Assembly (NCBI RefSeq): GCF_004010195.1
Contig: NC_057718.1
Location: 88,514,819-88,534,818, forward strand
Direction of reading: 5' to 3'
Length of the DNA: 20,000 nucleotides
From: Chiloscyllium plagiosum
Taxonomy: Eukaryota
The position numbers were made by a program, and so were the translations under genes. Under the pieces are notes generated by a model. It was not told the origin of the DNA and ran no database searches. It saw only the letters and a list, made by a program, of their open reading frames with translations. Below, one piece after another: positions 10,561 to 12,440 of this stretch. The number at the start of each line of letters is the position of its first letter. Position 1 is the stretch's first letter.

Positions 10561-12134
10561 TTTGAATGCAAGTTTTAAGATGAACTTCTGTACCTAACTA
10601 CTTAATGTCAATAGCGAAGAAATAAAACACCTTTGGGTATTTAACGCCAAATTCAAATACCAATACATCAGTAGAATTCTTTTCAGAAGACTTCTTTTAA
10701 AAAAAAAGTTCAATCATAGGATTAATGGTGCCACTGGCCAGGCCGTCTGTAATAGCCACAGAGAAGTTGGTGGTGATTTACCACTAGAGTCCTTCATTTG
10801 CGGGTACACCCACCGTGCTGTTAGGTAGGGAGTTCCAGGAATTTTACCAAGCTGACAGTGAAGGAACAGTGTTACTATTCCATGTCAGGATAATGTACGA
10901 CCTGGATGGAAATATGCAGGTGATGTTCACATGCATCTGTTCTTCTAGATGATACAGGTTTCAAGTTTGGAAGGGAGTGCAGTGCATCAGTAGTGAAGGA
11001 AGCAAATGTTAAAAGGTGGTGGATGGGGTGCCAATCAGGCAGGCTGCTCTGTCCAATGAATACTCCATCATGCTCCTAACCAATGTTTGCTCTAAGCTGC
11101 ACAGAGCCATTTTGATGTTTCATGGACAATGATCAGTGTCAGCATCCAAATGCAACATCGACTTCTAGTTCCAGAGGTCACTGCTATGCACAGGTCTTGG
11201 AGGCCCATGCAGCCAGTAAGACAATTAGAAGAATGCTGCTCCTGACTTGTGCCTCGCAGGTGGACAGGCATTGAAGAGACATGAAGTGAGTTACACATTG
11301 TAGATGTTCAAGGCTCTGACCAGCTCTTGCAGCAATAGTATTTCTAAGACTCCAGTTCAGTTTTTAGTCAATAGTAAGCACCAGAATGCTAATAGTGTGC
11401 AATTTAGCAATGGTAATACCACTAAATGTCAAGGGCAATAGTCACATTCTCTTGTTGGGTGATGGTTATTCGTACTATACAAGTGCCAGACAATGTTACT
11501 CACCATTTAGAATCAGAGGCGTACAGCACAGAAACAGACCCATCAGTCCAACTCATCCATGCCGACCAGATATCCTAACCTAATCTAGTCCCATTTGCCA
11601 ACACTTGGCCCATATCCCTCACAACCCTTCTTAAATCATGTACCCATCCAGATGCCTTTTAAATACTGCAATTGTACCAGCCTCCACCATTTCCTTTGGC
11701 AGCTCATTCCATACACAGACCACTCTCTGCATTAAAAAGTTGCCCCTTAAGTTGCCTCTTAAATTTTCCCCATGTGCCCTCTAGTTATGGACTCCCCCAA
11801 CCCTGGGAGACGACCTTGTCTATTTACCCTAGGGCCCTCATGATTTTATAAACCTCTAAGGTCACCCCTCAGCCTCCGATGCTCCAAGGAAAACAACTCG
11901 AGCATATTCAGCCTCTCCCTGTAGTACAAATTCTCCAAGCCTGGCAACATCCTTGTAAATTTTTTCTGAACACTTTCAAGTTTTACAACATCCTTCCGAA
12001 AGGAAGGAAACCAGAATAGGGAAAAGCAACCCTCTACCATCACCGTCTTCTACCTTCAAGCCTATTCTGTATCTAAATGGCTAGTTCTCCCTGAATTCCA
12101 TGAGATCTAACCTTGCTATGTAGTCTACCATGAG

Positions 12135-12353
12135 GAGGAGAAAGTGAGGTCTGCAGATGCTGGAGATCAAAGTTGAAACTTTATTGCTGGAACAGCACAG
12201 CAGGTCAGGCAGCATCCAGGGAACAGGAGATTCGACGTTTCGGGCACAGGCCCTTCTTCAGGAATGAAGAAGGGCCTGTGCCCGAAACGTCGAATCTCCT
12301 GTTCCCTGGATGCTGCCTGACCTGCTGTGCTGTTCCAGCAATAAAGTTTCAAC
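12135..12353 (-). mobile_element. Penelope-like (PLE) pseudo-LTR fold-back element, copy 1
   Basis: Perfect 89-bp inverted repeat (12172-12260 / 12265-12353) with a GGAA spacer and a 37-nt unpaired tail (12135-12171). The direct repeat agtctaccatgagga flanks it at 12122-12136 and 12354-12368. It interrupts CR1 RT, and the homologous CR1 site at ~17603-17620 is empty. Confidence 0.85.
12230..12265 (-). ncRNA. Minimal type I hammerhead-ribozyme-like motif
   Basis: The minus strand reads AUUC-CUGAAGA-A-GGGC-CUGU-GCCC-GAAA-CGUC-GAAU. This gives a 4-bp stem I (AUUC/GAAU), core CUGANGA, a 4-bp stem II, GAAA, a palindromic ACGU in place of stem III, and a GUC cleavage triplet. Confidence 0.7.
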
Positions 12354-12440
12354 AGTCTACCATGAGGAACCATGGCAAACACCTTACTTAAGTGCATACA
12401 GATCACTTCCACCACTCTGTCCTCATCAATCCTTTTTATT

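What the first reader, a model, noticed from the sequence alone, without database searches (positions are those of the whole stretch)
12122..12368. Perfect 89-bp palindromic mini-element with a hammerhead-like motif and a 13-15-bp TSD
Seen: a ~220-bp non-coding insert with zero-mismatch 89-bp arms, a 4-nt spacer and a 37-nt one-sided tail. It is flanked by the direct repeat agtctaccatgagga and sits in CR1 RT at a site that is empty in the paralogous CR1. The minus strand holds a complete CUGAAGA / stem II / GAAA / GUC motif with a 4-bp stem I. Known: Penelope-like elements carry minimal hammerheads in their pseudo-LTRs, often leave an inverted pLTR fragment at the 5' end, and have a short 3' tail extension. 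Inference: this is a very recent PLE-machinery insertion reduced to little more than the ribozyme region, either an extreme truncation product or a non-autonomous ribozyme-bearing hairpin family mobilised in trans.
Basis: partly seen in the sequence, partly recalled or inferred. Interest (0 to 1): 0.72.

Follow-up and report, generated by a model that had tools for sequence, protein, structure and literature searches.

The report
Fold-back Penelope retroelement stub insertion
This 217-base hairpin-shaped insert, flanked by a duplicated target site, is real and has a 92%-identical sister copy 3 kb away; it is likely the stub-sized end of a Penelope-like jumping gene whose mirror-image half was likely made during insertion, an already described and ordinary kind of insertion.

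Summary
Observation confirmed: 89-nt perfect arms (12172-12260 / 12265-12353), 4-nt spacer, 35-37-nt one-sided tail, 13-15-bp target duplication, a minimal type-I hammerhead motif on the minus strand, and an empty site in a paralogous LINE. At 9 of 10 sites where the copies differ, each copy's two arms agree. Public runs of two coded organisms show hundreds of contigs sharing the tail end with unrelated flanks. This fits the published insertion unit of endonuclease-bearing Penelope-like elements (hammerhead-bearing end, inverted truncated copy, 30-40-bp tail), with the inverted arm likely built at each insertion. In a full transcript the hairpin is predicted to bury the ribozyme. Not shown: a link to an RT+GIY-YIG ORF (searches blank, no genome held), presence of this exact insertion in reads, and a very recent age. 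This scan already noted the same kind of element many times elsewhere in this genome. Ordinary. The one open point is whether copies stop at a fixed edge just upstream of the hammerhead.

The parts
12122..12136 (.). Left copy of the target-site duplication (15 nt; last 2 nt shared with the element's tail end)
   Evidence: it differs from the paralogous empty site at 3 of 15 positions and the right copy has the same letters
12135..12171 (-). One-sided tail, 37 nt (35 without the 2 shared nt); inferred start of reverse transcription
   Evidence: same end in copy 2; hundreds of contigs have unrelated flanks at 12135-12136
12172..12260 (-). Arm 1: part of the sense half (pLTR-like end; sense is the minus strand)
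12230..12265 (-). Minimal type-I hammerhead motif: stem I 4 bp, core CUGAAGA with C3 at 12261, extra A, stem II 4 bp, GAAA, self-complementary ACGU, predicted cut between 12234 and 12233
   Evidence: features as described in PMC4209133; activity untested
12258..12267 (+). Centre: TCA-GGAA-TGA micro-hairpin holding the 4-nt spacer 12261-12264; candidate snap-back or annealing point
   Evidence: 3-bp end hairpin in the DNA fold; listed family contigs stop matching at 12265-12267
12265..12353 (+). Arm 2: inverted copy of sense positions 5-93, without tail and with an incomplete core (AUGAAGA)
12354..12368 (.). Right copy of the target-site duplication
12040..12420 (-). Host: decayed LINE reverse-transcriptase segment interrupted by the insert (CR1 label recalled)
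15078..15322 (-). Second copy of the same family: 14-bp duplication 15078-15091 / 15309-15322, 5 extra nt 15092-15096, sense half 15097-15229, inverted arm 15230-15308 (79 nt, 2 mismatches), 16-nt spacer
17521..17669 (-). Paralogous LINE segment with the empty site (17603-17617)

Best explanation
The insert is a 217-bp asymmetric palindrome with a 13-15-bp target duplication and a hammerhead motif, and it is likely the stub of a Penelope-like retroelement end whose inverted arm was likely built during insertion. Shown: anatomy, target duplication, empty paralogous site, a second copy with the same outer ends and another centre, and a large dispersed family with one fixed end. Inferred mechanism: a PLE RT/GIY-YIG protein from elsewhere in the genome nicked the target with a 13-15-nt stagger. 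One nick primed reverse transcription at the tail end (2-nt microhomology), and the cDNA ran about 133 nt and stopped 6 nt past the hammerhead core. The cDNA 3' end then folded back at TCA-GGAA-TGA and copied itself to the tail boundary, or a second cDNA primed from the other nick at the tail-boundary start site annealed there; the product was joined to the far side of the target. The hammerhead is the family's ordinary passenger and is predicted to be silenced by the hairpin in this copy, so the copy is likely dead on arrival.
For: Tail end identical in both copies; the inverted arm ends at sense position 93 in one and 92 in the other, but starts at 5 and 14. At 9 of 10 sites where the two sense halves differ within the span of both inverted arms, each inverted arm carries its own copy's letter. 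Duplications of 15 and 14 bp. Loose ends before 12136 in 300 (X1), 171 (X4) and 285 (X10) contigs, median length 255, agreement 0.33-0.35, so unrelated flanks at a shared end. 93, 54 and 86 contigs of other LINE copies run from 12118 into the empty-site sequence. Probability of stems I and II is 0.0 in the full RNA, and 0.10-0.16 and 0.91-0.95 in an RNA starting at 12265. The DNA fold of the putative cDNA end closes a 3-bp hairpin at its last base. Literature: an inverted 5'-truncated copy plus a 30-40-bp tail at one end is typical of endonuclease-bearing PLEs (PMC8557442, passages); inverted pLTR 37 bp shorter, 31-bp tail, 8-10-bp TSD, and palindromic junctions read as self-priming (PMC3846280); the PLE protein nicks and extends both strands and starts RT at two sites that bound the tail (PMC11167929); minimal hammerheads with an extra base before stem II and palindromic 15.2-16.2 occur in pLTRs, mostly as single motifs and sometimes on opposite strands 100-700 bp apart (PMC4209133).
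Against: No copy was linked to an RT+GIY-YIG ORF: the open minus-strand frame through the tail found nothing and no genome is held. Only two copies could be compared in full. Agreement between arms is also expected from two hairpin subfamilies or from conversion between arms. Copy 2 shows no end hairpin at the matching edge. The duplications (14-15 bp) are longer than the 8-10 bp in the rotifer passages. The target of copy 1 is not AT-rich, unlike the lizard element's preference. PMC3846280 argues that head-to-head self-priming needs an antisense template, which is not the cDNA snap-back proposed here. No listed read or contig spans this insertion's junctions. Rfam has no hit.
Confidence: 0.8

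Rival explanations
1. A non-autonomous hairpin family: a palindromic master copy is transcribed and moved whole by PLE proteins in trans, the ribozyme being part of its life cycle.
For: Both outer ends nearly fixed in two copies; no ORF link found; non-autonomous PLE derivatives are described (PMC8557442; bioRxiv 10.64898/2026.07.22.740005); agreement between arms would also arise from separate hairpin masters.
Against: Centres differ between two copies that are 92% alike (4-nt against 16-nt spacer); the full hairpin RNA is predicted to have no ribozyme stems.
Confidence: 0.07
2. A short RNA mobilised by a LINE (CR1/L2/L1-type) protein, with the inversion made by twin priming; the hammerhead is incidental.
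For: TSDs of 13-15 bp and variable length are common for LINE-driven insertion (recalled); the window is rich in LINE remains.
Against: No poly(A) or simple-repeat 3' end and no match of the element to the LINE sequences of the window; twin-priming inversions do not duplicate the same segment as a palindrome (recalled); a hammerhead plus a 37-nt tail is the PLE pattern.
Confidence: 0.07
3. A MITE-type DNA transposon whose terminal inverted repeats make up most of its length.
For: Short, non-coding, long inverted repeats, high copy number.
Against: The inverted repeats are not terminal: 35-43 nt lie outside them on one side only; TSDs differ in length and sequence between copies (15 and 14 bp); an intact hammerhead lies at the centre.
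Confidence: 0.03
4. The palindrome is an assembly or library fold-back artefact.
For: No listed contig or read spans the centre or junctions of this locus; perfect arms are what a fold-back artefact gives.
Against: A 15-bp target duplication, colinear restoration of the host frame, a one-sided tail, and a second copy of the same design whose arms differ at 2 of 79 sites are not produced by fold-back artefacts.
Confidence: 0.02

Closest known systems
Insertion units of endonuclease-bearing Penelope-like elements (Penelope/Poseidon, Neptune, Nematis): pLTR, adjacent inverted 5'-truncated copy, 30-40-bp tail (Arkhipova et al. 2013, PMC3846280; Craig et al. 2021, PMC8557442)
   Same: Head-to-head inverted copy lacking the tail, 35-38-nt tail at one end, short palindrome at the inverted junction, target duplication, strong 5' truncation.
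   Different: No ORF at all; the whole unit is about 215 bp; TSD 14-15 bp against 8-10 bp in the rotifer passages read; link to an autonomous partner not shown here.
[quoted passage not shown]
   Same: Type-I core, extra base between positions 9 and 10.1, G10.1-C11.1 pair, palindromic 15.2-16.2, 4-bp helix I, dispersed high-copy occurrence, pairs on opposite strands.
   Different: Stem II is 4 bp; here the opposite-strand partner is directly adjacent and has lost the CU of the core; no cartilaginous-fish term was found in the one supplement that could be searched.
Poseidon element of Anolis carolinensis, PAc (Frangieh et al. 2024, PMC11167929)
   Same: Hammerhead upstream of two RT start sites that bound the tail; last RT start about 85-92 nt after the ribozyme cut there, tail end 99 nt after the predicted cut here.
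   Different: PAc has a full ORF and prefers AT-rich targets; the paper sections read do not describe stub-sized palindromes.
Non-LTR retrozymes of animals (Cervera and De la Pena 2020, PMC7229834; Li et al. 2026, bioRxiv 10.64898/2026.07.22.740005)
   Same: Small, non-coding, type-I hammerhead, related to PLE pLTRs.
   Different: Retrozymes are head-to-tail tandem repeats with canonical hammerheads in each unit and make circular RNA; this is one head-to-head unit with a single complete minimal motif.

Membership tests
Endonuclease-bearing Penelope-like elements | ORF with telomerase-like RT and GIY-YIG endonuclease in this copy (autonomous element) | tested here: not met
   The insert is 217 nt; its open minus-strand frame is 41 aa with no Pfam hit. 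It is not filed as an autonomous PLE.
Endonuclease-bearing Penelope-like elements | The same hammerhead-tail unit flanks an RT+GIY-YIG ORF elsewhere in the genome | tested here: inconclusive
   No genome held; 41-42-aa queries found nothing; DNA patterns found nothing in prokaryote, viral and metagenome collections, which are not expected to hold the host.
Endonuclease-bearing Penelope-like elements | 30-40-bp tail at one end only | tested here: met
   35-37 nt in copy 1; 38 nt plus 5 extra in copy 2
Endonuclease-bearing Penelope-like elements | Inverted 5'-truncated copy adjacent at the 5' end | tested here: met
   2 of 2 copies
Endonuclease-bearing Penelope-like elements | Hammerhead motif in the terminal repeat | tested here: met
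   Descriptor match in 2 of 2 copies, 0 of 200 shuffles reached 2; Rfam blank
Endonuclease-bearing Penelope-like elements | Short target duplication of variable length | tested here: met
   15 (13-15) and 14 bp; only two copies
Minimal hammerhead ribozyme | Self-cleavage (as dimer or protein-assisted) | not testable with these tools
   Folding predicts none in the full hairpin RNA; no assay
Non-LTR retrozyme | Head-to-tail tandem units, each with a complete hammerhead | tested here: not met
   Both copies are single head-to-head units. One contig joint in X1 joins 12265 back to 12135, so tandem units may exist elsewhere (table 5c).
MITE (DNA transposon) | Terminal inverted repeats at both ends and a fixed TSD length | tested here: not met
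   One-sided tail outside the repeats; TSD 15 and 14 bp

The most novel reading that the evidence does not exclude
The family is amplified from a dedicated RNA of about 135 nt that starts 6 nt upstream of the hammerhead core and ends at the tail. PLE protein copies it in trans, and the programmed TCA-GGAA-TGA end of the cDNA snaps back to prime the second strand, so each insertion builds its own hairpin. Tens of thousands of such stubs would then map the RNA start, both RT start sites and the second-strand priming step of the unsolved PLE cycle.
Probability: 0.2. Interest if true: 0.5.

Novelty: new member of a known kind. Interest (0 to 1): 0.22.

Why it matters
As a single locus it matters little: it is one likely dead insertion of a very abundant family, in a layout that is in print. 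Its value is as a clean record of a PLE insertion. How PLEs make the second strand and the inverted copy is still open (PMC11167929, PMC8557442). Young, minimal palindromes with fixed outer ends and variable centres allow self-priming and two-site priming to be tested by counting junctions across the genome. Perfect 89-bp palindromes at high copy number could also form double-stranded RNA or cruciform DNA, but nothing here tests that.

Tried and rejected
No whole genome is held, so no genome-wide copy table. Rfam to E=10: 13 matches, all below gathering score, mostly hairpin-type families, no hammerhead. The loose hammerhead pattern was not enriched. Link to a PLE ORF: the 41-aa frame against longer proteins (1 candidate, none at E<=0.01) and similar-length proteins (none), copy 2's 42-aa frame (1 candidate, none), phmmer against 1.84 billion representatives (0 hits), ESM Atlas (best 0.82, chance level), Pfam (0 families). 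Such short queries are weak and the frame may not be the ORF's. Tail and hammerhead DNA patterns: 0 hits in metagenome (twice), prokaryote and viral collections. Run search: 20 of 24 listed runs hold part of the 2-kb stretch, best share 0.46; no RNA holder listed. Read lay (4 of the 24 runs, stretch 11800-12290 holding only 26 nt of arm 2): the tables are cut (156,067 pieces, 1,214 loose ends and 240 joints not shown), no listed piece spans this locus's junctions, so presence, absence and polymorphism of this insertion stay undecided; depth is no copy number; the single-cell RNA run showed no sharp start or end, and such libraries are not built to show one. Scan look-up by sequence found nothing. 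No convincing TSD was found for the third palindrome. Rejected: 'very recent' as a shown fact; the 4-bp stem I as a sign of selection; MITE; retrozyme. Repbase and Dfam were not available. Literature searches were made; none listed a paper on this shark-type family, but most subscription papers are not in the library. Supplement 1 of PMC4209133 (alignments) and the .gbk file of PMC11167929 could not be read and may bear on how close the motif is to named families; supplement 2 of PMC11167929 was not opened.

Full report
Observation. The arms at 12172-12260 and 12265-12353 are 89 nt and fully complementary, with GGAA between them. A 15-nt direct repeat lies at 12122-12136 and 12354-12368. Its last two letters also fit the start of the tail as seen in the sister copy, so the duplication is 13-15 bp and the tail 35-37 nt. 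With the insert and one repeat copy removed, the host aligns without gaps over 149 nt to 17521-17669 and keeps the same reverse-transcriptase frame. That paralogue hits Pfam RVT_1, and an endonuclease frame upstream hits Exo_endo_phos, so the host is a LINE; 'CR1' is a recalled label. The repeat differs from the paralogue at 3 of 15 positions and both repeat copies carry the same letters. In public contigs, 93, 54 and 86 pieces of other LINE copies run from 12118 into the empty-site sequence. The duplication is therefore a true target duplication.

Hammerhead. The minus strand reads AUUC, CUGAAGA, A, GGGC-CUGU-GCCC, GAAA, CG, UC, GAAU. It has the marks that Cervera and De la Pena give for minimal hammerheads of Penelope-like elements (PLEs): an extra base before stem II, a G10.1-C11.1 pair and palindromic 15.2-16.2 (PMC4209133, parts 1 and 2 of 4 of the text read; ACGU is self-complementary). 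A strict descriptor, written after seeing the motif, matched 2 sites in the window against 0.015 on average in 200 shuffles. Against this, a loose pattern was not enriched and Rfam reported no hammerhead. On the other arm the core is cut to AUGAAGA. In an RNA of the whole insert the long hairpin wins (z = -28) and both ribozyme stems have probability 0.0; in an RNA starting at 12265 stem II forms (0.91-0.95) and stem I is weak (0.10-0.16). The fourth pair of stem I is absent in copy 2, and both states are common in the family.

A second copy. It has a 14-bp duplication, 79-nt arms with 2 mismatches, a 16-nt spacer and 5 extra bases at the tail junction. The sense halves differ at 11 of 130 positions. 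The tail ends coincide and the inverted arms end at sense positions 93 and 92, but they begin at 5 and 14. Ten of the differences lie where both copies have an inverted arm; at 9 of these each inverted arm carries its own copy's letter, and the tenth is a C-to-T change at a CpG on one arm of copy 2. So the arms within a copy share a source, while the centre is not inherited. Separate hairpin subfamilies or conversion between arms could give the same agreement, and two copies are a small sample.

The family. Four of 24 listed runs were laid on 11800-12290 at 90% likeness. In three contig sets from two coded organisms, 300, 171 and 285 contigs leave the stretch just before 12136 with long loose parts that agree only 0.33-0.35, which means many unrelated flanks at one shared end. 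Listed pieces from family members stop matching at 12265-12267, and 36 contigs in X1 have a loose end behind 12267. This suggests that TGA at 12265-12267 is both the element's own upstream sequence and the first bases of the inverted arm. If so, both window copies stop 6 nt upstream of C3 (12267 and 15229). The tables are cut and no listed piece crosses this locus's own junctions, so the lay neither confirms this insertion in other samples nor shows an empty allele. Depth is not a copy number. That the host is a shark is recalled from sequence likeness and from earlier notes of the scan; it was not tested.

Mechanism. Shown are the anatomy, the duplication, the two fixed outer ends and the variable centre. 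The rest is inferred from published PLE work. The lizard PLE protein nicks and extends both target strands, is predicted to be a dimer, and starts reverse transcription at two internal sites that bound the genomic tail; hammerhead cleavage was not needed for insertion in vitro (PMC11167929, parts 1 and 2 of 4 read; supplements 1 and 3 opened without useful text). Here the tail end would be the first start site and the tail boundary the second, or the point where the intermediate is resolved. The first cDNA would run from the tail to just past the hammerhead core. Its end, TCA-GGAA-TGA, closes a 3-bp hairpin in the DNA fold, which could prime copying back along itself. The alternative is that a second cDNA, primed from the other nick, annealed at the same 3 bases; the sequence cannot tell these apart. 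Copy 2 shows no such end hairpin, and Arkhipova et al. argue that head-to-head self-priming needs an antisense RNA template (PMC3846280, passages and Discussion read), so the priming step is the weakest part of the model.

Age. Zero differences in about 100 site pairs bound the divergence below about 3%, against about 16% between host LINE and paralogue at the site. At 7e-10 per site per generation (PMC10587355, passages; another species' rate) the bound is about 20 million generations. The insert is younger than its host and than copy 2 appears, but 'very recent' is not shown.

Comparison with the known. An inverted 5'-truncated copy beside the pLTR and a 30-40-bp tail at one end are described as typical of endonuclease-bearing PLEs (PMC8557442, passages). 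A rotifer copy has an inverted pLTR 37 bp shorter, a 31-bp tail and a 9-bp TSD. The insert works like such a unit reduced to its last 133 nt. Membership is not proven: this copy has no ORF, and no ORF-linked copy was found, because no genome was held and short protein and DNA queries came back blank. It fails the tests for retrozymes (tandem units; PMC7229834 passages; bioRxiv 10.64898/2026.07.22.740005 part 1 of 5 and passages) and for MITEs. Six literature searches listed no paper on this particular family; Repbase and Dfam could not be checked.

Earlier notes. The scan has reported palindromic, hammerhead-centred stubs in many other windows of this genome, with the same reading. Those are unchecked AI notes and are not counted as support. 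Two of them state that most copies stop just upstream of the hammerhead; my two copies and the contig ends agree, and I took the short-template reading of the novel case from them.

Verdict. Real, well formed and ordinary: a new member of a known kind, interest 0.22. The boldest open reading is a dedicated RNA of about 135 nt with a programmed snap-back end (probability 0.2), testable by a genome-wide junction count and 5' end mapping.

Noticed in passing
window 14515-14680: A third, older asymmetric palindrome of another family: arms about 71% alike (14590-14679), a degraded hammerhead-like core on both arms, and a long side whose end resembles copy 1's tail. No convincing TSD.
   Followed up: partly
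window 12444-12506 (insert about 12405-12505): A short piece matching the LINE end at 16006-16073 and 11505-11573 is inserted in the same RT segment and is absent from the paralogue.
   Followed up: no
window 11508-13306 and 16006-18896: Two decayed paralogous LINE copies on the minus strand, 78-84% alike; the first lacks several internal stretches present in the second.
   Followed up: partly
window 15092-15096: Five extra bases between copy 2's TSD and tail; similar T-rich letters precede the tail in public contig joints and loose ends, so the start of reverse transcription may vary by a few bases.
   Followed up: partly
window 12135-12265 (table 5c): Contig joints in public runs link 12265 back to 12135 and 12168-12169 back to 12133-12135, hinting at head-to-tail units and doubled tails elsewhere in these genomes.
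   Followed up: no
window 15587-15610: A 24-nt stretch 83% like the tail-arm boundary of copy 1 (E 0.02-0.04); may be chance or an old fragment.
   Followed up: no
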